This document shows positions 1 through 54,143 of a DNA stretch of 64,000 nt, piece by piece. Source of the DNA: Candidatus Pacebacteria bacterium CG2_30_36_39. Lineage in GTDB: Bacteria > Patescibacteriota > Microgenomatia > UBA1400 > PJMF01. The notes below the pieces were generated by a model. That model was not told the DNA's origin and searched no databases. It was given only the letters and a program-made list of their open reading frames with translations. The translations under genes and the position numbers were made by a program. The stretch spans positions 14,030 through 78,029 of the forward strand of contig MNZB01000004.1 in assembly GCA_001873435.1 (NCBI GenBank), given 5' to 3'. Each line of letters starts with the position of its first letter. The first letter of the stretch is position 1.

Positions 1-817
1 CTCTAAAATAAAAAAATATTCAGCAATAACCTCGGCGCTCATCTCCTCTGTCATGGAAAAATTCTCCCAAACCTTTATTGCTTGCTCTTTTTGTGCTTTA
101 GTAAGTCTTTGCCATGAGGTTAGCGGCAAATGGGGATCATTTATTTCTACTTTTTCCCAAATAAAATATGTAGTTTTATCTTTTTCTTTTGACTGATAAC
201 CATCTGAACTATATGCCCTTGGATCAATCAACCAAGTATAGTGATATTCTCTTGAATGATTTTCCAACCCAGGAAAACTAGGTACATAATTTGACTCTTC
301 ATCAACAACATGTTTAATTACTTCCATATCAATACGAAAAAACGGATAACGCGGTATTAAAGATATGTCTTCATTTTGAATAGCAAAAATTTCTGGCAAC
401 TCCTCTTTTAAACCCCTCAATAAAGCAGCATTATATCCCTCAATCTTCACTTCCAATTTTTCTCTGAATGAAGCTCCACCAAGTTTGCGACGACGCTCGC
501 GACCATCATTAAAAACTTGTTTTTCTTCCCTAAGCAAAAAAGTCTCTCCGTCTTCATTTTGAGTATAGAGATAAGCACCAACTTGCTCGATACGACGAAC
601 TAATTTTCCCTCACTAGTAACATATAATTCTGCATCACCTTTTTGTATTTCTAAAAAAAGTCTTTCAATTGGCTTAGAACCAGAGGTAATACCCCATTGA
701 GAAAAATCAATTCCATATTGAGTTAAACAAGCTTTCAGATCTTCTAAAGTATTAATTGTGGGAGCAAATTCTCCAACCTCCTTATGATCTCCTTGTAATA
801 ATTCAGTTGCTACCATA
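1..817 (-). CDS. hypothetical protein, N-terminal part (start codon at 817; gene continues beyond the window start)
   Basis: Own translation of the minus strand from the ATG at 817 gives an uninterrupted frame (MVATELLQGDHKEVGEF...FREKLEVKIEGYNAALLRGLKEELPEIF...) running off the window. No family recognised. Confidence 0.4.
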
Positions 818-2383: not shown

Positions 2384-3445
2384 TTATATGTTCAAAATAT
2401 TACTTATTACCTCAATAAACTTTTTATTTATCTTTCTAGTCCTAGGACTCACTCTAACAAAATCATTACCCAAAACTGGAAAAGCCGTACCATTCACCAC
2501 TGAAACATTTAAATCAGCTAATTTTTCAACAAAATCATTAGAAGAAAGAAATAATGGTGTAACTTTTACCAATAAATTATTTGCCTCAGAATCAACAACC
2601 TCAAAGCTCATTTTTTTTAATTCTCTTGTTAAAAAACATCTTTCTTTAACCATAAATTTTCTTGTTTTATTCATAAACACTTGGTCATTTAAAGCAGCTA
2701 TCACTGCTTTCTGAGCAAATTTGTTAACCGCAAAAGGCTGGGCTATCATCTGCAACAAATTAACTCCTTGTGGGTTAGCAACACAAAAGCCAACTCTCAG
2801 ACCAGCTAAGCCAAAACCTTTAGAAAAAGTTCTTAAAACAATTAGATTATCAAAATTAGCTACTTCACTAATTACCGATTCACCACCAAATTCGATATTA
2901 GCCTCATCTACTATTACAAAGGCTTTGGTATTTTTAACTAATTGCAAAATATCTTTTTTAGCTAACAATTTACCAGTTGGATTATTGGGGTTACAAAGAA
3001 ATATTATTTTTGTCTCCTTAGATATTTTTTCTTTTATATCAATTAAATCTATAGAAAAATCACTCGTCATTGGTGATTGAATAACAATTCCACCAGCCAA
3101 AGCCACTGACTTCTCAAACATTGGAAAAGTTAGAACTGGAACAATAGCTTCTTCTCCTTTTGACATAAGAACTCTAGGTAAAAGCTGAATCAACGACTCA
3201 GAACCATTGCTAATAAAAAAGTTTTTTAAAGAAAGCTTAAATCTTTGAGCCAAATCAACCCTGATTAGATTACTATCTGGATCTGGGTAATCAAAACAAT
3301 CTATTTGAGTTATTTCTTTCATAACCCTAATTACTTCTAAAGAGCAACCAAGTGGATTTTCACTCAAAGAAAGATCAATAGCTTGTTTGTTGCCAAAAGC
3401 ATAAAGAGTTCTAAAACTAGCTGGAGGGAGAATAAGGTTTTTCAT
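2384..3445 (-). CDS. hisC: class I/II PLP-dependent aminotransferase, histidinol-phosphate aminotransferase-like
   Basis: Motifs ENPLG, FLCNPNNPTG, VIVDEA and RTFSKGFGLAGLRVGF (PLP-lysine region) are typical of HisC-type aminotransferases. The ORF track starts at a TTG (3457); the in-frame ATG at 3445 (MKNLILPP...) is preferred here. Confidence 0.7.
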   Translation of the reverse strand: MKNLILPPASFRTLYAFGNKQAIDLSLSENPLGCSLEVIRVMKEITQIDCFDYPDPDSNLIRVDLAQRFKLSLKNFFISNGSESLIQLLPRVLMSKGEEAIVPVLTFPMFEKSVALAGGIVIQSPMTSDFSIDLIDIKEKISKETKIIFLCNPNNPTGKLLAKKDILQLVKNTKAFVIVDEANIEFGGESVISEVANFDNLIVLRTFSKGFGLAGLRVGFCVANPQGVNLLQMIAQPFAVNKFAQKAVIAALNDQVFMNKTRKFMVKERCFLTRELKKMSFEVVDSEANNLLVKVTPLFLSSNDFVEKLADLNVSVVNGTAFPVLGNDFVRVSPRTRKINKKFIEVISNILNI

Positions 3446-12853: not shown

Positions 12854-12898
12854 ATTATAGTCCTTTCATAATGAATTGTCAATACTTTATATAGGATA
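12854..12898 (-). promoter_or_regulatory. near-consensus sigma70 promoter (TTGACA-17-TATAAT) with upstream TATCCTATA element; drives the 11164..6507 operon
   Basis: Minus strand reads TATCCTATATAAAGTATTGACAattcattatgaaaggacTATAATcc. The -35 is at 12877..12882, the -10 at 12854..12859 and TATCCTATA at 12890..12898. Confidence 0.55.
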
Positions 12899-14351: not shown

Positions 14352-14503
14352 AAAAAACTCCTCTCAATAATTAAGGAGGAGTTACTTATTTTTTTTGCCT
14401 ATTTCGGCCACATCATTCCCCCTTAAGCGAACTAGCACCGTATCCTTTGCCAAAAGGCTCGGTTGCTGGACAATGTATAAACATTGCCACTCTTGATGTT
14501 GAG
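14352..14503 (-). promoter_or_regulatory. SAM-I-clan (S-box-like, possibly SAM-I/IV variant) riboswitch leader with terminator hairpin overlapping the metK RBS and start codon
   Basis: Minus-strand RNA CUCAACAUCAAGAGUGGCAAUGUUUAUACAUUGUCCAGCAACCGAGCCUUUUGGCAAAGGAUACGGUGCUAGUUCGCUUAAGGGGGAAUGAUGUGG contains the S-box signatures AUCAAGAG, GCAACC and GGUGCUA plus a closing P1 (CAACAUC/GAUGUGG). It is followed by AACUCCUCC-uuaauuauuga-GAGGAGUU-UUUUUUUU(AUG). P2 is a simple hairpin without the classic GGAGGGA/GGCCC kink-turn, so the subtype is uncertain. Confidence 0.55.
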
Positions 14504-14538
14504 AAAAATTATATCAGACTAATATTTATTTGCACAGC

Positions 14539-21159: not shown

Positions 21160-22140
21160 ATGGAAGGCACTAAAAGAAATCAAAACAATCCAGAAAATAA
21201 AGCAAGTGATTTAAGTAGAAAAGACTTTTTAAAACTGATAGCTGCTTTAGCCGCCGGTACTGCTGGTGCTTTTTTATTTTCTAATCTTCCTGATACAAGA
21301 AAATTTGATGTTTGGGAGAACGATTTGCCAGAACCAATTTTGGGAGCAAAAAGATTCTTATTAATTGGTGATGTTCACGCTGGAGATACTAATGATAGTG
21401 TCAGACAAACAAATACTAGATCTGCTGAAAATCTACAAAATGTAATTGACCATCTTGGAAACTATCCATTTGACCTACTCATTCAAATGGGCGATGTAAT
21501 CAAAGAAGGTAAAAATGAAGCTAGAAATATAGAAAATTACGAAACAGTAATTGATATATTGAAACAATTTCCACATCAAACAATTAATCTTTTAGGAAAC
21601 CATGATTTATGGGGAATTTCCCCTGAAAATATAAGTGCTATTTATGGAAGAAATAACTTGAACTCTCCTTACGGTGTACAGCAATTTGATGATTTTCAAA
21701 TTGTCTGGCTCGATGTCATAGCAGAAAAAAATATTCATGGTCTGCTTCCAGAAGAAAGAATTGATTGGTTGAAATCTATTATTTTTAGAGATACTCCAAC
21801 ATTTATTTTTTCTCATTATGCTCTGTTACCACAAGACATTTCTGAAAGTTATTATTTTGGAGGTGACTCAGCACAGACGGCATTTGGAAATGGTGAAAAA
21901 GTTTGGCGAGCTTTAGAGGGATTACCAGTTCATGGATTTATAAATGCTCATATTCATGAAGGAAAATATTCTAAAGTCAATAATACTCACATGATTACAA
22001 TTCCAGCTTTCGTAGAAAATACATTTGCAAATACCAATGAAAATTCTGGAGCATATTCAATTATGGAAATAACTTCCCCATACGAATGGTCTCTTAAGTC
22101 ATATTTGGGCAATACCTGCTTAATGGATATCACTATATGA
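21160..22140 (+). CDS. calcineurin-like metallophosphoesterase with Tat-like (RK variant) signal
   Basis: LSRKDFLKLIAALAAGTAGA signal; LLIGDVHAGD, MGDVI and LGNHD metallophosphoesterase motifs. Confidence 0.75.
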   Translation: MEGTKRNQNNPENKASDLSRKDFLKLIAALAAGTAGAFLFSNLPDTRKFDVWENDLPEPILGAKRFLLIGDVHAGDTNDSVRQTNTRSAENLQNVIDHLGNYPFDLLIQMGDVIKEGKNEARNIENYETVIDILKQFPHQTINLLGNHDLWGISPENISAIYGRNNLNSPYGVQQFDDFQIVWLDVIAEKNIHGLLPEERIDWLKSIIFRDTPTFIFSHYALLPQDISESYYFGGDSAQTAFGNGEKVWRALEGLPVHGFINAHIHEGKYSKVNNTHMITIPAFVENTFANTNENSGAYSIMEITSPYEWSLKSYLGNTCLMDITI

Positions 22141-47450: not shown

Positions 47451-48854
47451 CTATTTTCTTTTTAACTCATAGCCATATAAATGGCGTAAAAAGATAGCAG
47501 GAGGATCTTCTAATAAAAACTGCTGAAACTCTTGATAAAGGGCTTTGCGTTCTTCTTGATCCAAAGTGGTTCTAGCTTTCTCCAATAAACTATCAATACG
47601 AGTATTCTTGTAATTAGTAAAATTTGTTGATTGACCAGAATGCCAAAGGAAATATTGATCTGGATCAACTGGTGATTCCTGACCTATTAAGAGTAACTGA
47701 AAATCATTTGTATCTGGAAAACTACTAACTTTTAAGTTAACCTTAATTTCTAGAAAACCACAAAGTTCTTTTTCTTTTACAGCACTAGATTTCTGACAAT
47801 CGGCAACAGCTTTTTTACCTAGCTCAGTCCACTGTTGAACAATGCTTTCAGCATCTTTCTCAAAAGTTTGAGTCGTAGTTAAATAAAGCTCTAGTGGTTG
47901 TCTAGGCATATCGTCAAAAAAACGTTCTGTAGCTCTATTTAAATCTTTTTCATAATTCTTCCCACCCTCAAGATATGCCCATGAAGTTGGATCTATTGGA
48001 CCTCTAGCTTGAGTGCCATCGCGTGGACTCTCTAGACCGTAAGATAAGGCCTGTCTCACAGATTTGGTCATCAAAGGATCGGCATTATTAAAAAATACAG
48101 CCAAATATCTATCAGTATGAAGAATTGGAGTGCTTTCAACATTTTTCCAATCTTTTAGATCTGCAGGATCAGCTATATCTGGAATAATATCTATCTCTCC
48201 CTTTTTGAAAGCATTAATTAAATCAGTTTCTGTTAGATAAAAACGATAAACAAGCTTTTTATCTGGAGTTTCCACCACAAGCTCACTTAAACGATTACCT
48301 TTTTTAGTGTAATCTGCAATTCTATTTGGCCCAATACCAATAAGGGTTTGTCTAGAAAAAAACCATAGATATTTTTCAGTTCCTTGACGAAATACTGGTT
48401 CTGATAGCACAGATGGAAATGGAGAAAATGCGTCTGGTAATTTAAAAACTAAGTCATTGGGTGTTGCCACAGTTTCAACATCAACAAATTGATATTTAAT
48501 ATCTGCTGGCTCAACTTCTTTACCATCCTGCCAAACAACATCCTTTTTTAAAACAAAACGATATTGTTTACCATCATCTTCCACCACCCAGCGTTGAGCT
48601 AAATATGGTTTCGCTTCTTTGGTTTCGGTTATTTGAGTTAAGCCTACACTTAACTGATTTTTAATAGTCTGGGGTAAAGTATTGAGAGTGAAACTACCAA
48701 TCATCCCAATATATTCTTTTTTCTTGAAATTAAGACGATCTACTAGGAATGGAATAAAAAGAGAGAAAATAATAATTGCTCCAACTAATGAAGTAATTAA
48801 AATCGGGCCATGTTTTTTGGCATAAGCAGTTAGATACCAGTACAAACGTCTCAT
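47451..48854 (-). CDS. ABC transporter substrate-binding protein, family 5 (peptide/nickel type), membrane-anchored
   Basis: SBP_bac_5-like blocks (RFVLKKDVVWQDGKEVEPADIKYQF, PDQYFLWHS). N-terminal TM anchor. Confidence 0.7.
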   Translation of the reverse strand: MRRLYWYLTAYAKKHGPILITSLVGAIIIFSLFIPFLVDRLNFKKKEYIGMIGSFTLNTLPQTIKNQLSVGLTQITETKEAKPYLAQRWVVEDDGKQYRFVLKKDVVWQDGKEVEPADIKYQFVDVETVATPNDLVFKLPDAFSPFPSVLSEPVFRQGTEKYLWFFSRQTLIGIGPNRIADYTKKGNRLSELVVETPDKKLVYRFYLTETDLINAFKKGEIDIIPDIADPADLKDWKNVESTPILHTDRYLAVFFNNADPLMTKSVRQALSYGLESPRDGTQARGPIDPTSWAYLEGGKNYEKDLNRATERFFDDMPRQPLELYLTTTQTFEKDAESIVQQWTELGKKAVADCQKSSAVKEKELCGFLEIKVNLKVSSFPDTNDFQLLLIGQESPVDPDQYFLWHSGQSTNFTNYKNTRIDSLLEKARTTLDQEERKALYQEFQQFLLEDPPAIFLRHLYGYELKRK

Positions 48855-48918
48855 CTATCTCCTATTCTAGGGCAGAAACAATGATTTTGCCAAGAGAAAT
48901 AATAAGCTAGAAATTTAT

Positions 48919-49131
48919 TTATGCTATGGCAGCAATAGAAACAGCTGCAAAAAGAACAATGGCTACTATAGTTAAAATGAAAACCACTCGCTCTACACCT
49001 CGACGGGTGTGATAAGTTTCTCCACCACCACCCCAGGTTGAGCCTAGTCCACTACCTTGTGCTTGTAAGAGTATAAAAGCAGTAATTATTATTGCTAAGA
49101 TAATTTGGATTACCAATAAAGCACTATTCAT
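48919..49131 (-). CDS. secG: preprotein translocase subunit SecG
   Basis: 70 aa, two TM helices. Central LLQAQGSGLGSTWGGGGETYHTRRGVE matches the SecG Gly-rich loop. Confidence 0.8.
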   Translation of the reverse strand: MNSALLVIQIILAIIITAFILLQAQGSGLGSTWGGGGETYHTRRGVERVVFILTIVAIVLFAAVSIAAIA

Positions 49132-49199
49132 TTTTTCCTTTATTTTTTATCTTGCTGCCAGCCCAAATATTTTACAATTCAAACTGGCAGTCTAATTAG

Positions 49200-50798
49200 C
49201 TATTTTGTTTTTACTTCAGCTCTATTTTCTCTAATAACAGTAACTCTAACACTACCAGGAACCATAACTTTCTCCTGGATCTCGTCGCGAATTTTGACTG
49301 CTAAAACCTCCACATCATCATCTTTAGATTTTTCTGCTTCTAGTAAAACGCGTAATTCACGTCCTGCTTGAACAGCATAAGCCTGTTTAACTTCTGGATA
49401 TGAAGTAGCAATTAATTCTAGGTCTTCTAGACGTTTAATATATTCTTCATGGTTCTCATAACGAGCACCTGGTCTAGCGCCAGAGATAGCATCAGCTACA
49501 TAAACAGCCATTTGTTCTGGACCAGTAAAAGGTTCGTCTTCATGGTGTTGAGCGATACAATCAACTACTGCCTGTGGCATACCAAATTTTTTGGCAATAC
49601 GTACACCCAGAGCAATATGGTTATCATCTGGATCTTCAGCTACTTTACCAATATCGTGTAGCAAACAACCCAATTTAACTATATTTACATCTAAACCAAG
49701 TTCATGAGCAACTTTAGTACCGATTTTAGTTTCCTCCATGGTGTGAGTAATCATGTTTTGACCATAAGAAAAACGATATTTAAAGCGACCCAACATAGCA
49801 ATTAAGCCAGAGGGAAGATTATAAACACCCACAGCATGACAAAGTTGTTTACCAGCTTCAAAAATTACCTTTTCAATTTCTTTTTCGACTTTATCAACAA
49901 CTTCTTCAATGCGAGTTGGTTGAATGCGACCATCTTTAACTAGTCTTTCCAAAGAAATTCTAGCAATTTCACGACGAACTGGGTCAAAACAAGAAAGTTT
50001 TACTTCTGTTGGTGAAGCATCAAGATCCACATCAACACCAGTGCGACGTTCAAATGAGTGAATGTTTCTACCACTCTTGCCAATGATTTTGCCTTTGATT
50101 TCTTCAGAGGGGATATCTACGACTGATACTGTGTATTCTGCTACGTTATCAGTGGCACCATATTTCATAGCGTCAATTAAGATTTGAGCAGCTTTATCGT
50201 CAGCTTCTTGCTTGGCTACTTCTTCTTGTTCACGGATGTACTTAGCCATTTCACTGGCCATTTTCTTTTCCAAACCATCCATGAGCATTCTCTTGGCTTC
50301 ATCTTGAGATAGTTTTGAAACTTTTTGAAGATTTTCTAAGATTTTTTCTTTAGTTTTTTCAATTTCCAATTTGGTATTGGCAATTTTTTCTTTTTCTTGC
50401 TCTAGATAGTCTTCTTTGCGCTCTAGGCCAGAGAGACGGTCATCTAGGCGATCTAATTTATTTTCCAAAAACTTTTGTTGTTCTTCCAATTGTTTTTCAA
50501 TTTTGCGAGCTTTTTTCTCAGCTTCAGTATGAATAGCCATTGCTTCATCTTTGGCTTCAACAATAATTTCTCGAGCTTTTGCTTGAGCTTCACGAAGAGC
50601 AACCTGATTATCAACGCTTAGTTGAATAGGTCTAACTACCGGTTGAGCTTGTGGGGCAACTGGATTTTTGCTTTTAGCTGGCTTTGCCTTTTCAGGTTTT
50701 TTAGCTAATTTGAGTTGTGGTGCGTTTGCCTGAGGAGCTTTTGCTCCACTAGGAAGCTGTTCACCAAACAGCCTAGATAGATTATTAAAAAATGACAT
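49200..50798 (-). CDS. rny: ribonuclease Y
   Basis: N-terminal TM and coiled-coil, KH domain (GKIIGKSGRNIHSFERRTGVDVDLD), HD domain (LLHDIGK...HH). RBS AAGAGG. Confidence 0.9.
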   Translation of the reverse strand: MSFFNNLSRLFGEQLPSGAKAPQANAPQLKLAKKPEKAKPAKSKNPVAPQAQPVVRPIQLSVDNQVALREAQAKAREIIVEAKDEAMAIHTEAEKKARKIEKQLEEQQKFLENKLDRLDDRLSGLERKEDYLEQEKEKIANTKLEIEKTKEKILENLQKVSKLSQDEAKRMLMDGLEKKMASEMAKYIREQEEVAKQEADDKAAQILIDAMKYGATDNVAEYTVSVVDIPSEEIKGKIIGKSGRNIHSFERRTGVDVDLDASPTEVKLSCFDPVRREIARISLERLVKDGRIQPTRIEEVVDKVEKEIEKVIFEAGKQLCHAVGVYNLPSGLIAMLGRFKYRFSYGQNMITHTMEETKIGTKVAHELGLDVNIVKLGCLLHDIGKVAEDPDDNHIALGVRIAKKFGMPQAVVDCIAQHHEDEPFTGPEQMAVYVADAISGARPGARYENHEEYIKRLEDLELIATSYPEVKQAYAVQAGRELRVLLEAEKSKDDDVEVLAVKIRDEIQEKVMVPGSVRVTVIRENRAEVKTK

Positions 50799-50886
50799 AG
50801 TTTACCTCTTTCATATAAGTACTAACATATTTCTTTTCTCAAAAAAACATTTGAGAGAAAAGAGTTAACTTAGGATTTTGATATGG

Positions 50887-51103
50887 AAAAACTAGAGGAG
50901 TTTCCTCTAGACAGACGCGAAGAGCGATCGGGGACCGACAGGCTGATTTATTGCATTACTGCGAGTCATAATATTAATAAGTTTGTCCGATATATTCGAT
51001 AATTCTGTTTGCGTTTTTTCCATTTAGACTTAAATTTTTTCAAACTCAAGTCACTTCGCAAGTTACTGGCTGAGATTATATGCCCTCTTGGCACTTTAGT
51101 CAA
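50887..51103 (-). ncRNA. candidate ~180-nt sRNA or terminator-attenuated rny leader: consensus promoter (TTGACT-17-TATAAT) followed by intrinsic terminator
   Basis: Minus strand TTGACTaaagtgccaagagggcaTATAAT (-35 at 51098..51103, -10 at 51075..51080). About 180 nt downstream lies CTAGAGGA-aac-TCCTCTAG followed by TTTTTCC (50887..50910), 90 nt before the rny start. Confidence 0.35.
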
Positions 51104-51176
51104 TGAAAAACATTTTCAATAACTTAAAGTATAGGACTATATATCAATCCTTTTGGCACTTTTACACCTAATTTGG

Positions 51177-52235
51177 CTATTTTTTAGCTGCTTCCTCGCT
51201 ATTTTGGATAGATTCCCAGATTTTTTTCTCAATTTCTTTGCATAAAGGGTGATCTTCTATCAAGCGCTGTTTAGCAGCCTCTCTGCCTTGAGCAAGAACT
51301 TCTCCATTGTATTTAAAGAAGCTTCCTGATTTTTCAATCACTCCCTTTTCTACACCAATGTCTACCACATCTCCTTCTCTGGAAATACCGTTTACATCCA
51401 TATCAAATTCAGCAGCTTTAAAAGGTGGGGCCATTTTGTTTTTCTTGACCTTCACACGATGGCGGCTACCTACAATATTCTCACCTTCTTGGATATTACC
51501 AATTTTACGAATATCCAAACGCAATGAAGCATAAAATTTCAAGGCATTGCCACCAGTAGTAGTTTCTGGACTACCGAACATAACTCCAATCTTCATACGA
51601 ATTTGATTGGTGAAAATCATTAAGGTATTGGTTTTGCTTAGAGCTGCAGTTAATTTGCGCATAGCTTGAGACATTAAACGAGCCTGGGTACCCATTTGAT
51701 GATCACCCATGTCTCCTTCTATTTCAGATTTAGGAACTAAGGCTGCCACTGAATCAACAACAACTATATCAACTCCACCAGATCTGACTAGGGTTTCTGC
51801 AATTTCCAATGCTTGCTCACCATAGTCTGGTTGAGAAATTAATAATTCATCTAAATTGACACCAATTTTTTCTGCACGAACTGGATCCAAAGCATGTTCA
51901 ACATCAATAAAAGCTGCTACTCCGCCATGTTTTTGAACTTCAGCGATGGCATGCAAACACAAAGTGGTTTTACCAGAGGCTTCTGGACCATAAATTTCAA
52001 CAATTCTTCCCCTAGGAAAACCTCCTACGCCTAAGGCCATATTCAAAGCTAAAGAACCAGTAGAAACTACTGGGATTTTGGGCATATTTTTTAAAGATTC
52101 ACCCATTTTCATGATTGAACCCTTGCCAAATTGATGTTCAATTTGTTGCATGGCAATGCCAACAGCTTGATTTTTTCCATCTTGAGTACTGGTTAGATTA
52201 TCATTTTCTGAAGAAATGGATTTTTTTCGTGCCAT
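51177..52235 (-). CDS. recA: recombinase RecA
   Basis: Walker [11 protein letters not shown]1/L2 loops, IDVEHALDP, 352 aa. Unmistakable RecA. Confidence 0.97.
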
Positions 52236-52435
52236 ATTTTTCTTTCTATACTAATTGCGTATACCCACACATTACCCCAAACAATATGTCATAGCAAGTC
52301 GTGAATTATTGACTTGGAGAAGAATGTTTACTAACAAGAGTCTATAGGTAAAAAATAACAACTATATGACACGTTAAATAAACTTGTTATTAGTTTTCAG
52401 TAAGTTTTGATACAATCAGGGCACCCTAAAAAAAA

Positions 52436-52509
52436 CGGAGAGTGGCGCAGATGGCTAGCGCGCGCGCATGGGGTGCGCGAGGTCGCAGGTTCGAGTCCTG
52501 TCTCTCCGA
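52436..52509 (+). tRNA. tRNA-Pro (anticodon GGG), C1:G72 acceptor, no encoded CCA
   Basis: CGGAGAG-TG-GCGC-AGATGGCTA-GCGC-G-CGCGC-ATGGGGT-GCGCG-AGGTC-GCAGG-TTCGAGT-CCTGT-CTCTCCG-A. Cloverleaf is consistent. Anticodon loop AUGGGGU. Confidence 0.85.
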
Positions 52510-54143
52510 CAATCAGAAAAAAAGCCCTTTTTCTCAAAAGTAGCGAATGGTTCTTCTAATTGATACTTCGCTACTTTTTTGTTATTCACACGTAGGTTCG
52601 AGAAGATTTTTTCAATCAAATAATTTTTTCTACTTAGAGATTTGGTTTTGACGATCTCATCGGGCAATTTCTTAACTTGTTCGGTGAATTTAGAAAATGT
52701 CAAAATACTTGATTTGTTATTCTCAATCTGTTTTTCAATCTCAATTAATGCTGATTCAAATTCTTTGAGCTTTTTTCTATTTTCTTTCAGCTCTGATTCA
52801 TAATCTTCTCGTAGCTCTCGATCAGATATATCAAGTAGATACTTTTTGATTTTGATATTTTGCTGATTTAGACCAGCTTTTTGCGTAACAATTGATTTTT
52901 GTTCTACCCTGAGTAAAGCTAACCTATCTTTTTGAACCCTTTTAGACTCCTCTACATAATGCTCATATACCTCTTTTGTGGCAATGTTGGTATTTTTAAG
53001 AAAATCAACAACAAAATCTACTAAAACTCTAGCTCTAACGTGGTGTTGAACTTTTTTACCTGAGATATTTTTAAAAGAACATTTTTTGTTGTCACATCTA
53101 AAATAAAACTTGTTACCTTTGCTTGGTGAAGTGATTGAAACATACATTGTTTCACCACAATGATCACAAATAACTCGACCATTAAGTAGTCTACCCTTAA
53201 CATTCTTTTTCACTCTCTTGTCATATCTCCTCAAGAATGATTCTCTGTTTTTCTTAGTAATATTATTGATCTTGAAAAAGTGAGCAGGGCTAACTACTGG
53301 CACGAAATCAAATATCTCCATCAAATTAATAACCTTATCGCCATATCGCATTACCCCTGCATAAATTGGATCTGAAAACATTTCACTCAGACGTTTTTGA
53401 TCAAATGAATAGGGTTTTCTTTGATTTATCTTATTCGTTACTGGCTTAGTAAAATTATGTGTGTTGAGATACTCCTCAATTTCTCTATATATAGCCCCCT
53501 CAAACCTCATTTTCCAAGCTTCCCTGATCAAGACATAGTTATCACCATCGGGCTGTAATCGGTGCATATCGTCTTTAAAATAACCGTGTTTTGGTACTGT
53601 TAGCCAACCACCCTCTTCGGCTCTCTTATGAAGCCCTCTTTTTACATCTTTACTCAGAGCATCTGAATATTGTTTTGATAAAACAAAAGTAATGCCCAAC
53701 ATCACCTTGCCTGATTCATTATTTTCAAAGGAAAAAGAGGGAAATTTTAGATCCTTGATAATTCCTTTATCAAGCAGATCAATAATTTCACCTGCTTCTT
53801 TCATATTTCGAGCTAAACGATTTGGATGCCAAGCTAAAATACCTTGATACTTACCAGCCTTTACATCTTCAATCATTTTTCTAAACTTAGGACGAATATC
53901 AGGGTCTTTAGCACTCTCTTTTTCCTGAATATATGGCTCTATAACAATGAGCTTCTCTTTTCGAGCAAAGTTAAGGCACTCATCAATCTGGTCTGGAAGT
54001 GATTTCTCTTGTTTATCTTTGTCTTTTGTTGATCTTCGAGCATACAAAACATACTTGTATGATTTTGGATCATCTTCAACAATGGTATCTGCTTTTAAAT
54101 TTTTGAAGTATTCAAAAAAATCTTTTTGAGTAATATCAACCAT
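52455..54143 (-). CDS. large serine recombinase (resolvase/invertase catalytic domain + recombinase domain + zinc ribbon + coiled coil)
   Basis: N-terminal YARRSTKDKDKQEKSLPDQ (catalytic Ser), zinc ribbon CDHCGETMYVS...FRCDNKKC, 562 aa. The 3' 55 nt overlap the tRNA-Pro on the opposite strand. Confidence 0.85.
   Translation of the reverse strand: MVDITQKDFFEYFKNLKADTIVEDDPKSYKYVLYARRSTKDKDKQEKSLPDQIDECLNFARKEKLIVIEPYIQEKESAKDPDIRPKFRKMIEDVKAGKYQGILAWHPNRLARNMKEAGEIIDLLDKGIIKDLKFPSFSFENNESGKVMLGITFVLSKQYSDALSKDVKRGLHKRAEEGGWLTVPKHGYFKDDMHRLQPDGDNYVLIREAWKMRFEGAIYREIEEYLNTHNFTKPVTNKINQRKPYSFDQKRLSEMFSDPIYAGVMRYGDKVINLMEIFDFVPVVSPAHFFKINNITKKNRESFLRRYDKRVKKNVKGRLLNGRVICDHCGETMYVSITSPSKGNKFYFRCDNKKCSFKNISGKKVQHHVRARVLVDFVVDFLKNTNIATKEVYEHYVEESKRVQKDRLALLRVEQKSIVTQKAGLNQQNIKIKKYLLDISDRELREDYESELKENRKKLKEFESALIEIEKQIENNKSSILTFSKFTEQVKKLPDEIVKTKSLSRKNYLIEKIFSNLRVNNKKVAKYQLEEPFATFEKKGFFSDCRRDRTRTCDLAHPMRAR

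What the first reader, a model, noticed from the sequence alone, without database searches (positions are those of the whole stretch)
50887..51103. Consensus promoter to ~180 nt to intrinsic terminator between recA and rny: candidate sRNA or attenuator
TTGACT-17-TATAAT (51075..51103, minus strand) would start a transcript ending at the CTAGAGGA/TCCTCTAG hairpin plus U-run (50887..50910), 90 nt upstream of the rny start codon. This is either an independent sRNA or a premature-termination leader regulating RNase Y. RNase Y is known to be tightly controlled in other bacteria. The unit also contains an unconvincing 38-codon ORF (MEKTQTELSNISDKLINIMTRSNAINQPVGPRSLFASV) with no SD.
Basis: seen in the sequence. 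Interest (0 to 1): 0.55.

Follow-up and report, generated by a model that had tools for sequence, protein, structure and literature searches.

The report
Conserved uORF-bearing leader of rny
The promoter-to-hairpin unit between recA and rny is most likely not a free-standing small RNA but the front part of a long, folded leader of the RNase Y messenger, containing a tiny conserved reading frame whose stop codon sits in the terminator-like hairpin; this suggests that these bacteria tie production of their main RNA-degrading enzyme to translation.

Summary
Neither pattern alone beats chance in this AT-rich window; conservation is the evidence. The recA-rny arrangement recurs in Pacebacteria/Microgenomates-type Patescibacteria, and 60 of 67 recA-rny spacers hold a TTGAC[T/G]-17-TA[T/C]AAT promoter 170-330 nt upstream of rny, with no comparable promoter nearer.

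All 114 non-identical leaders contain one short ORF. It is 10-30 codons in 45 of 46 unrelated clusters, against a null fraction of 0.32. It has no SD, one ATG-to-GTG replacement and only in-frame indels. Its peptide is barely conserved.

The hairpin covaries (8 of 8 pairs). Terminator-like hairpins cluster at the uORF stop in about half of the leaders. The 5' end pairs with sequence downstream of the hairpin, so the functional RNA runs past the "terminator". Rfam has no match.

Best reading: a cis-regulatory rny leader with a ribosome-dependent attenuator. The mechanism is inferred. An RNase Y autoregulatory leader without real termination is the main rival. An independent sRNA is unlikely.

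The parts
51098..51103 (-). -35 hexamer TTGACT
   Evidence: TTGAC is invariant in alignment A1. The same promoter is found in 60 of 67 recA-rny spacers.
51075..51080 (-). -10 hexamer TATAAT. The transcription start is inferred at about 51067 (an A, 7-8 nt downstream).
   Evidence: The start site is inferred from spacing and was not mapped.
51060..51067 (-). P0 5' arm (AGUAACUU), at the extreme 5' end of the predicted transcript
   Evidence: In the MFE fold of the full leader it pairs with 50863..50871. The family-wide 5'-3' duplex has mean z -1.86 and Wilcoxon p 9e-17, and z<=-2 in 34 of 66 clusters. In the window alone it is weak (z +1.3).
51009..51061 (-). P1 (UUGCG 51061..51057 with CGCAA 51013..51009), enclosing hairpin P2 (51052..51027, an 11-bp stem)
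   Evidence: Helix 1 of A4 is 83% paired, with 2 pairs showing compensatory changes. P2 appears in the MFE folds. The P2 sequence differs among relatives but stays a hairpin.
51015..51023 (-). PX 5' strand AUGGAAAAA, complementary to the U-run plus CCAU that follows the hairpin
   Evidence: RNAalifold on 7 relatives and the MFE of the window leader. Both strands are conserved but nearly invariant, so there is little covariation.
51004..51008 (-). PY 5' strand ACAGA, pairing with UCUGU at 50915..50911. This helix encloses the uORF start and body.
   Evidence: Helix 2 of A4 is 98% paired, and one position changes AU to CG. Variants ACAGAA/UUCUGU, GCAGAA/UUCUGC and GCAGCA/UGCUGC are visible. The helix is specific to this clade and is not family-wide.
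50970..51003 (-). A/U-rich, G-poor linker that is predicted unpaired and lies upstream of the uORF start
   Evidence: Unpaired in the MFE folds. Family profile: G is 5-10% at -20..-3, T is 69% at -1, and A is 71% at +4.
50907..50969 (-). uORF: ATG at 50969, 20 codons (MTRSNAINQPVGPRSLFASV), stop TAG at 50909..50907.
50914..50929 (-). Small G+C hairpin inside the 3' part of the uORF (GAUCGC UCUUC GCGUC)
   Evidence: Helix 3 of A4 has 3 of 4 pairs with compensatory changes but only 69% of cells paired. Also seen.
50892..50910 (-). P4: the terminator-like hairpin CUAGAGGA-AAC-UCCUCUAG. The uORF stop codon is bases 2-4 of its 5' arm.
   Evidence: Folding energy -10.5 kcal/mol. Helix 4 of A4 has compensatory changes in 8 of 8 pairs.
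50883..50891 (-). U-run UUUUU followed by CCAU. This is a putative termination site and also the 3' strand of PX.
   Evidence: TAGTTTTTCC is kept in six of the seven distinct close relatives; L005 has a longer T-run followed by GCTTTCC.
50863..50871 (-). P0 3' arm AAGUUAACU, located downstream of the hairpin
   Evidence: In relatives the duplex is extended to 20-25 nt, for example L157 at -18.5 kcal/mol, z -4.4.
50833..50862 (-). P5: second hairpin (CUUUUCUCU...GAGAAAAG) between P0 and the rny ribosome-binding site
   Evidence: -10.8 kcal/mol, z -3.1. Relatives carry a hairpin of different sequence at the same place.
50796..50810 (-). rny Shine-Dalgarno AAGAGGU (50810..50804) and start codon ATG (50798..50796)
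49200..50798 (-). rny (RNase Y, 532 aa), the gene served by the leader
51134..51150 (-). Weak hairpin GGAUUGAUAUAUAGUCC after recA, probably the recA terminator. It is not part of the leader but bounds it upstream.
   Evidence: Read from the sequence. L007 has a clearer homologue at the same place: ACTGATAGATCAGT followed by T7.

Best explanation
[quoted passage not shown] It is not a separate gene.

Shown by comparison:
(1) A strong sigma-70-type promoter is conserved 170-330 nt upstream of rny, and it is the only good promoter in the spacer.
(2) The leader always carries one short ORF of 10-41 codons with no SD, sitting behind an unpaired A/U-rich stretch. Its frame, start and length are conserved but its peptide is not.
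(3) The uORF stop codon lies in or next to a hairpin. In the window and in about half of the leaders that hairpin is followed by a U-tract, like an intrinsic terminator.
(4) The 5' end of the leader pairs with sequence downstream of that hairpin.

Inferred mechanism: RNA polymerase starting at about 51067 reaches the hairpin and U-run at 50910..50887. If no ribosome is translating the uORF, the hairpin forms and a fraction of transcripts end there as a roughly 180-nt RNA. A ribosome that has followed the polymerase and sits on the stop codon UAG (50909..50907) covers the 5' arm of the hairpin. This blocks termination and lets transcription run into rny. Read-through transcripts then fold the long-range 5'-3' helix. 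RNase Y synthesis would in this way be coupled to translation of the leader.

A further layer is speculative. The unpaired A/U-rich stretch containing UAUG|A resembles RNase Y's weak cleavage preference, so RNase Y might compete with the ribosome there. That would give autoregulation.
For: - Promoter: at least 10/12 in 60 of 67 recA-rny spacers, and the next-best match in each spacer scores 10/12 or less and sits at no conserved position. TTGAC and TATAAT are invariant in A1.
- uORF, ORF statistics: exactly one ATG at +40..125 in 83 of 114 leaders. In the ATG frame the ORF is 10-29 codons in 82 of 83. In frame +2, 41 of 83 close before 8 codons and the longest is 55. Of 46 blastn-unrelated clusters, 45 have a 10-30-codon ORF against a null fraction of 0.32, binomial P about 1e-21.
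- uORF, start codon: the six apparent exceptions have GTG at the homologous position (L019) or an ATG slightly further upstream.
- uORF, indels: all indels inside it are multiples of three (106 of 106 pairwise runs, about 5 independent blocks), against 51 of 245 upstream.
- Hairpin: 8 of 8 pairs show compensatory changes. For the whole structure, 79.9% of cells are paired against 67.5% in shuffles (0 of 500 reach it).
- Terminator-like hairpins: present in 60 of 114 leaders against 33.8 +/- 3.9 in dinucleotide shuffles, clustered at -13..+16 from the uORF stop in several unrelated subfamilies.
- Long-range 5'-3' pairing. It is present in the window's own MFE fold.
- Non-SD initiation is plausible here: only 12 of 50 long ORFs in the window have a strong SD core.
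- Precedent for a long regulatory rny leader: B. subtilis rny has a 164-nt 5' UTR through which RNase Y autoregulates (PMC10303841).
Against: - No transcript ends were observed. Termination at 50887 and read-through are inferences.
- The U-run is also complementary to an upstream AUGGAAAAA. Its conservation could therefore reflect RNA structure rather than termination.
- About half of the leaders have a hairpin at the uORF stop with no U-tract. Transcription attenuation therefore cannot be the family-wide mechanism.
- Hairpin energies in close relatives are weak (-5.3 to -7.3 kcal/mol).
- No alternative antiterminator pairing was found.
- No regulatory codons or amino-acid bias are present in the peptide.
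- Third-codon-position excess is slight (58/63/80 variable columns).
- The window's own long-range helix is weak by the duplex test (z +1.3).
- The uORF has no SD, and its translation is inferred only from comparative signatures.
Confidence: 0.5

Rival explanations
1. It is a structured rny 5' UTR that controls mRNA stability or translation, without real transcription termination. The hairpin and U-run are simply parts of a folded domain: PY, P4 and PX, closed by the 5'-3' helix P0. RNase Y, possibly with RNase J or RNase III, cleaves the leader, for example in the unpaired A/U-rich stretch around UAUG|A. Ribosomes on the uORF protect or remodel the leader. The result is homeostatic autoregulation like that of B. 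subtilis rny.
For: - The U-run pairs with AUGGAAAAA in RNAalifold and MFE folds.
- Many family members have the hairpin but no U-tract.
- P0 buries the 5' end.
- B. subtilis RNase Y cleaves its own 164-nt 5' UTR, and inactivation depends on ribosome occupancy (PMC10303841).
- The RNase Y preference is G|A in A/U-rich unstructured RNA, with U at -2/-3 and structure downstream (PMC11780869). The conserved UAUGA context fits this.
Against: - An 8-bp hairpin directly followed by U5 is expected to terminate at least partly, whatever its other roles.
- Terminator-like hairpins are enriched roughly 1.8-fold over shuffles and cluster at the uORF stop.
- The RNase Y motif is weak and degenerate, so the match is not diagnostic.
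- ATG-to-GTG replacement, frame conservation and in-frame indels show the AUG is a start codon, not merely a cleavage motif.
Confidence: 0.3
2. It is an independent, trans-acting sRNA of about 180 nt, transcribed from 51067 and terminated at 50887. rny would then be expressed from another start site.
For: - A strong conserved promoter and a terminator-like end.
- The 191-nt stretch folds better than shuffles, z -2.8.
- Internal helices covary.
- Attenuator-derived RNAs can act in trans, for example rnTrpL (PMC6614838), so a secondary sRNA role is not excluded.
Against: - There is no comparable promoter between the hairpin and rny in the window or its relatives.
- Conserved pairing links the 5' end to sequence beyond the hairpin.
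- Many homologous leaders lack a U-tract.
- The element always sits directly upstream of rny, and no second copy is found in 0.97 Mb searched.
- No Rfam family matches.
- It contains a frame-conserved ORF.
Confidence: 0.07
3. It is a small-protein gene (20 aa in the window) with its own promoter and terminator. The peptide itself would be the functional product.
For: The ORF is conserved in presence, frame and approximate length in all 114 leaders. A mid-ORF Gln codon (CAG/CAA) and a C-terminal S/A-L motif are shared by the two closest groups.
Against: - Peptides are unrelated between subfamilies, and length varies from 10 to 41 aa.
- Variable columns by codon position are 58/63/80, which is nearly flat.
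- There is no composition bias or hydrophobic pattern.
- L005 truncates the ORF at 16 codons while keeping the downstream nucleotides.
- There is no Pfam hit.
Confidence: 0.05

Closest known systems
B. subtilis rny 5' UTR (RNase Y autoregulation; PMC10303841)
   Same: Same gene. A sigma-A-type promoter is followed by a long leader: 164 nt there, about 270 nt here. In B. subtilis, control is tied to ribosome occupancy. The leader contains A/U-rich single-stranded stretches next to structure.
   Different: The paper does not report a uORF or a terminator-like hairpin for B. subtilis. Sequence homology was not tested because no B. subtilis sequence was available in these tools. The RNase Y dependence of the present leader is unknown.
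Leader-peptide (ribosome-mediated) transcription attenuators: trp, his and especially pyrBI (own knowledge)
   Same: A short ORF sits in the leader, a hairpin plus U-run lies before the structural gene, and the geometry allows a translating ribosome to prevent hairpin formation. In pyrBI the ribosome physically blocks the terminator; here the stop codon lies inside the 5' arm.
   Different: There are no regulatory codon runs and no identified antiterminator. The regulated gene is an RNase, not a biosynthetic operon. The uORF has no SD. A long-range 5'-3' helix spans the terminator. Half of the family lacks the U-tract.
ilvB-II motif / conserved uORF in Corynebacterium ilvBNC mRNA (PMC10272879)
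   Same: A conserved intergenic element that looked like a structured ncRNA but contains a conserved regulatory uORF.
   Different: It has a different gene and clade, and presumably amino-acid-responsive logic. Only the title and abstract were consulted.
E. coli rne 5' UTR (RNase E autoregulation; own knowledge)
   Same: A long structured leader lets the main decay-initiating endonuclease control its own mRNA.
   Different: The enzyme is unrelated. No uORF or attenuator is known there, and control works through mRNA decay.
Attenuator-derived sRNA rnTrpL (PMC6614838)
   Same: A prematurely terminated leader RNA that contains a small ORF is released as a discrete small RNA.
   Different: There is no evidence here that the short product has trans targets.

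Membership tests
Intrinsic (Rho-independent) terminator | Stable G+C-containing stem-loop immediately followed by a U-tract | tested here: met
   8-bp stem with 4 G-C pairs, 3-nt loop and U5; -10.5 kcal/mol. It is among the 3-5 best such sites in 60 kb.
Intrinsic (Rho-independent) terminator | RNA 3' ends generated at the U-tract | not testable with these tools
   No transcript data are available. The U-tract is also complementary to an upstream A-tract.
Leader-peptide transcription attenuator | Short translated ORF within the leader | tested here: met
   The ORF is conserved in frame, start and length: 45 of 46 clusters, P about 1e-21. There is an ATG-to-GTG replacement and only in-frame indels. 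Translation itself was not observed.
Leader-peptide transcription attenuator | Terminator positioned so that ribosome position decides its formation | tested here: met
   In the window the stop codon is bases 2-4 of the stem. Among terminator-like hairpins found in the leaders, most start -13..+16 from the stop. About half of the family lacks the U-tract.
Leader-peptide transcription attenuator | Mutually exclusive antiterminator structure | tested here: inconclusive
   None was identified by inspection. Folds show only PY/PX/P0 around the hairpin. No dedicated search for alternative folds was run.
Leader-peptide transcription attenuator | Regulatory codons reporting a specific amino acid | tested here: not met
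   No amino acid is enriched more than 1.6-fold over the nucleotide-shuffle null, and there are no codon runs.
Independent trans-acting sRNA | Autonomous unit: own promoter and terminator, with the downstream gene expressed independently | tested here: not met
   A promoter and a terminator-like end are present. But there is no other good promoter before rny, and conserved pairing spans the hairpin.
Known RNA families (6S, SRP, tmRNA, riboswitches and others; Rfam 15) | Covariance-model match | tested here: not met
   Nothing in the spacer reaches the gathering score or E<=10 beyond noise. There are no hits in the spacers of 19 related loci.
RNase autoregulatory 5' UTR (B. subtilis rny type) | Long 5' UTR of the RNase gene from a sigma-A-type promoter | tested here: met
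   The leader is about 270 nt in the window and 170-330 nt in 60 of 67 spacers.
RNase autoregulatory 5' UTR (B. subtilis rny type) | Leader cleaved by the encoded RNase; mRNA level responds to enzyme level | not testable with these tools
   Only a sequence resemblance to the weak RNase Y preference is available: UAUG|A in an unpaired A/U-rich context (PMC11780869).

The most novel reading that the evidence does not exclude
Pacebacteria/Microgenomates-type Patescibacteria share a previously undescribed regulatory leader. In it, translation of a sequence-unconstrained, SD-less uORF decides whether transcription, or the fate of the mRNA, proceeds into rny. The cell's main decay-initiating RNase would then be produced in proportion to translational activity. 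RNase Y itself may compete with the ribosome at the uORF start, closing an autoregulatory loop. To my knowledge this would be the first leader-peptide-type control of a major ribonuclease gene, and one of very few cis-regulatory RNAs defined in the candidate phyla radiation.
Probability: 0.35. Interest if true: 0.7.

Novelty: new variant of a known kind. Interest (0 to 1): 0.58.

Why it matters
How bacteria set the level of RNase Y is known only for B. subtilis, where the enzyme cleaves its own mRNA. This work finds a leader with a frame-conserved uORF abutting a terminator-like hairpin, conserved in all 114 distinct leaders recovered, which fall into 66 sequence-unrelated clusters of uncultivated Patescibacteria. 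That points to a different and testable solution: coupling RNase Y synthesis to ribosome activity. It also gives a concrete cis-regulatory RNA family for a lineage in which almost no regulation has been described. Finally, it is a caution for annotation, because a promoter-to-terminator unit here is a leader and not an sRNA gene.

Tried and rejected
- Rfam gathering and permissive scans of the window spacer and of 19 related loci gave nothing.
- Single-sequence significance fails. Promoters of at least 11/12 occur 4 times against 4.5 in shuffles. Terminator-like sites number 40 against about 35 expected.
- Peptide-level conservation is weak. The codon-position pattern is 58/63/80 variable columns, there is no amino-acid or regulatory-codon enrichment, and the 38-aa ORF has no Pfam hit. 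Functional small protein: rejected as unlikely.
- A helix enclosing the uORF (PY) as a family-wide feature: rejected, mean z -0.05. It holds only in the window's clade.
- The 3' arm of the long-range helix as a sequestor of the rny SD: only a weak trend, mean z -0.5, p 0.0015. Not adopted.
- The covariance model R1 recovered only the two closest groups and found no second copy in the window or elsewhere in 0.97 Mb. The family is therefore held together by architecture, not by sequence.
- UAUGA as purely an RNase Y site: not sufficient, given the start-codon signatures.

Full report
THE OBSERVATION

On the minus strand, TTGACT (51103..51098), a 17-nt spacer and TATAAT (51080..51075) form an 11/12 promoter match, the best in 48000..54000. 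The hairpin CTAGAGGAAACTCCTCTAG (50910..50892) is followed by TTTTT (50891..50887). It folds at -10.5 kcal/mol.

The 532-aa ORF 49200..50798(-) is 100% identical to a protein named ribonuclease Y from Candidatus Pacebacteria bacterium CG10_big_fil_rev_8_21_14_0_10_36_11, with RNase_Y_N, KH and HD domains. The ORF 51177..52235(-) is RecA (Pfam E=7e-130).

The U-run ends 89 nt before the rny ATG. A transcript from about 51067 would be about 181 nt long.

Taken alone, the two motifs are not beyond chance in this AT-rich DNA. Promoter matches of at least 11/12 occur 4 times in the 64-kb window against 4.5 in shuffles. Terminator-like sites number 40 against about 35 expected over 60 kb. The case therefore rests on comparison with related sequences.

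RELATED LOCI

Scans with the RNase Y protein gave 80 genome loci and 80 metagenome loci. Four more came from exact-protein look-ups.

recA lies directly upstream of rny in 67 of the first 80 loci. The spacers are 143-958 nt, mostly 250-450 nt. In 60 of these 67 spacers, a TTGAC[T/G]-17-TA[T/C]AAT promoter (at least 10/12) lies 170-330 nt upstream of the rny start. The next-best match in each spacer scores 10/12 or less and sits at no conserved position. In the alignment of the nearest relatives, TTGAC and TATAAT are invariant.

This clade therefore transcribes rny from a strong promoter through an unusually long leader. Several other long ORFs in the window have TATAAT within 20 nt of their putative ATG, which suggests very short or absent leaders there.

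NOT A KNOWN RNA

Rfam 15 finds only three tRNAs and a SAM-I/IV riboswitch in the window. It finds nothing credible in 50700..51300 even at E<=10, and nothing in the spacers of 19 related loci.

THE SMALL ORF IS REAL, IN ITS SHORTER FORM

Nearly all leaders hold UAUGA 45-118 nt after the -10 box.

- Of 114 non-identical leaders, 83 have exactly one ATG at +40..125.
- In those 83, the ORF in the ATG frame is 10-29 codons in 82. In frame +2, 41 of 83 close within 8 codons and the longest runs 55 codons.
- After collapsing to blastn-unrelated clusters, 45 of 46 have a 10-30-codon ORF against a positional null of 0.32, binomial P about 1e-21. The 10-30 bracket was chosen after seeing the data, but the contrast is large.
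- The six leaders that seemed to lack the ATG have either GTG at the homologous codon or an ATG slightly upstream of my search range. L019 reads GTG TAT AAA TTA GAA where its relatives read ATG TAT AAA TTA GAA.
- In the structure-guided alignment of 13 sequences, every indel inside the ORF is a multiple of three: 106 of 106 pairwise gap runs, from about five independent blocks. Upstream of the ORF the figure is 51 of 245.

The upstream 20 nt are A/U-rich with 5-10% G, so there is no SD. Position +4 is A in 71%. Non-SD initiation seems common in this genome, since only 12 of 50 long ORFs have a strong SD core. That is a crude count.

The peptide itself is hardly conserved.

- Subfamilies have unrelated sequences of 10-41 residues.
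- Variable columns by codon position are 58/63/80.
- No amino acid is notably enriched.

This is the signature of a regulatory uORF, where the act of translation matters, rather than of a functional small protein.

In the window the conserved ORF starts at the internal ATG 50969 (MTRSNAINQPVGPRSLFASV).

THE HAIRPIN AND ITS SURROUNDINGS

The uORF stop, UAG at 50909..50907, is bases 2-4 of the hairpin's 5' arm.

All seven distinct close relatives keep the hairpin, and six of them follow it with UAGUUUUUCC; L005 carries a longer U-run followed by GCUUUCC. The stems differ: GAGGA/UCCUC, GUGAU/AUCAC, GUGCC../..CAC.

A covariance model built from 13 sequences of the two nearest groups realigned them. 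The pair counts are:

| Measure | Observed | Shuffle control (mean) |
|---|---|---|
| Cells paired | 79.9% | 67.5% (0 of 500 reach it) |
| Pairs changed on both sides | 14 | 9.3 (0 of 500) |
| Covariation score | 0.354 | 0.169 |

With the 3' partners slid by one to three columns, the covariation score is 0.06-0.17.

The terminator stem has compensatory changes in 8 of 8 pairs. Note that the alignment was fitted to the structure, which biases these numbers upward.

Family-wide, a hairpin starts between -12 and +16 nt of the uORF stop in 74 of 83 leaders. Terminator-like hairpins, meaning a hairpin plus at least 5 U in 8, occur in 60 of 114 leaders against 33.8 +/- 3.9 in dinucleotide shuffles. 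They cluster at -13..+16 from the stop in several unrelated subfamilies. The rest have the hairpin without a U-tract. Hairpin energies in relatives are modest, -5.3 to -7.3 kcal/mol.

THE UNIT DOES NOT END AT THE HAIRPIN

The first roughly 30 nt of the leaders pair with a segment 20-70 nt upstream of the rny start, which is downstream of the hairpin.

- In the exact-helix test, 20 of 114 leaders beat all 30 shuffles, where about 3.7 would be expected.
- In the duplex-energy test the mean z is -1.86, with 54 of 114 at z<=-2 and Wilcoxon p 9e-17.
- Per cluster, 34 of 66 reach z<=-2, p 1.4e-10.

The paired sequences differ completely between subfamilies. Examples are GUGCUGAGAAG/CUUCUCAGCAC, AUUCGAGUACGU/ACGUACUCGAAU and GUAACUUA/UAAGUUAC, which is covariation at the family level.

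In the window's nearest relatives the duplex spans 20-25 nt (L157: -18.5 kcal/mol, z -4.4). In the window itself it is weak by this test (z +1.3). Even so, the MFE fold of the full leader (279 nt, -60.4 kcal/mol, z -3.0) contains it, pairing 51065..51059 with about 50871..50865. That fold also contains:

- hairpin P2;
- a helix between AUGGAAAAA (51023..51015) and the U-run plus CCAU (50891..50883);
- a helix ACAGA/UCUGU that encloses the uORF;
- the terminator-like hairpin;
- a second hairpin at 50862..50833.

RNAalifold on seven relatives gives the same two flanking helices.

The ACAGA/UCUGU helix is specific to this clade. A family-wide test was negative. The model R1 found a single copy in the window (50883..51070) and no additional homologues in 0.97 Mb of related loci. 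The family is therefore defined by architecture rather than sequence.

INTERPRETATION

Shown: a conserved promoter, a long leader, a frame-conserved uORF, a covarying hairpin at the uORF stop, and pairing that bridges the hairpin.

These facts argue that the element acts in cis on rny, and argue against a free-standing sRNA.

Inferred: the geometry, with the stop codon inside the 5' arm of a hairpin followed by U5, is what one expects of a ribosome-dependent attenuator of the pyrBI type. A ribosome that keeps up with the polymerase and pauses at the stop covers the 5' arm and suppresses termination. Without uORF translation, the roughly 180-nt RNA is released.

There are no regulatory codons. 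The signal would therefore be translation or coupling itself, not a particular amino acid.

The main rival is that the hairpin and U-run are only structural parts of a leader that governs stability or translation. Three facts favour this rival: the U-run is complementary to an upstream A-tract, half of the family lacks U-tracts, and the 5' end is buried in a long helix.

B. subtilis offers the precedent. Its rny has a 164-nt 5' UTR, RNase Y cleaves that UTR and the first 100 nt of the ORF, and inactivation depends on ribosome occupancy (PMC10303841). The weak RNase Y preference is G|A in unstructured A/U-rich RNA, with U at -2/-3 and structure downstream (PMC11780869). This resembles the conserved UAUG|A context. 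RNase Y competing with the initiating ribosome is an attractive idea but remains speculative.

The two readings are not exclusive. I put about 0.8 on a cis-acting rny leader, about 0.75 on a translated uORF, about 0.45-0.5 on real conditional termination, and about 0.3 on RNase Y autoregulation through this leader.

NOVELTY

uORF-dependent attenuators and RNase autoregulatory leaders are both known kinds. The combination found here is not in Rfam, and the papers I could search did not describe it. The combination is:

- located on rny;
- found in Patescibacteria;
- an SD-less uORF whose peptide sequence is unconstrained;
- the stop codon inside the hairpin;
- a 5'-3' helix spanning the hairpin.

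Noticed in passing
window 52436..52509 (+) and 52455..54143 (-): A 562-aa large serine recombinase (Resolvase + Recombinase + Zn_ribbon_recom) ends 55 nt inside a tRNA gene on the other strand. In related loci the same tRNA sits 130-400 nt from recA. This looks like an integrated element that used the tRNA as its attachment site.
   Followed up: no
window 14381..14504 (-): SAM-I/IV riboswitch aptamer, 54.5 bits against a gathering score of 41.1. This shows that this Pacebacterium uses classical riboswitches.
   Followed up: no
window 51134..51150 (-); L007 about 2660..2690: A conserved block just upstream of the rny promoter: an A-tract, an imperfect hairpin (GGAUUGAUAUAUAGUCC in the window; ACUGAUAGAUCAGU + U7 in L007) and a U-rich tail. 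It is probably the recA terminator, and it is weak in the window, so some read-through from recA into the rny leader is possible.
   Followed up: partly
window, e.g. ATG at 21160 (+), 16657 (-), 2355 (-), 22688 (-): Several long ORFs have TATAAT within about 8-12 nt of their first ATG, and only 12 of 50 long ORFs have a strong SD core upstream. This suggests many leaderless or very short-leader mRNAs. It makes the 270-nt rny leader stand out. Start codons were not curated.
   Followed up: no
L004, L006, L007, L008, L084, L085 (leaders, just 5' of the uORF ATG): In the sister group of the window's clade, the sequence UUACAGUA is conserved immediately upstream of the uORF start. The window's clade has UUAUUAAUAU at the same place. 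It may be a non-SD ribosome-binding element or a protein-binding site; this is unexplained.
   Followed up: no
window 48919..49131 (-) and related loci: The gene order tRNA / recA / rny / secG / SBP_bac_5 family protein is conserved. A promoter-like TTGGCA-18-TAGAAT (48893..48864) sits between secG and the next gene.
   Followed up: no
window 12854..12882 (-): The only perfect 12/12 promoter match in the window (TTGACA-17-TATAAT) lies about 59 nt upstream of a 544-aa ORF starting at about 12795.
   Followed up: no
L044, L046, L047, L068, L079 (leaders): In this subfamily the 3' arm of the long-range helix (ACUUCUCUU) overlaps CUCUUUC, which can also pair with the SD-like GAAAGAG just before rny. 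That would make the 5'-3' helix an anti-sequestor of the ribosome-binding site. A family-wide test gave only a weak trend.
   Followed up: partly
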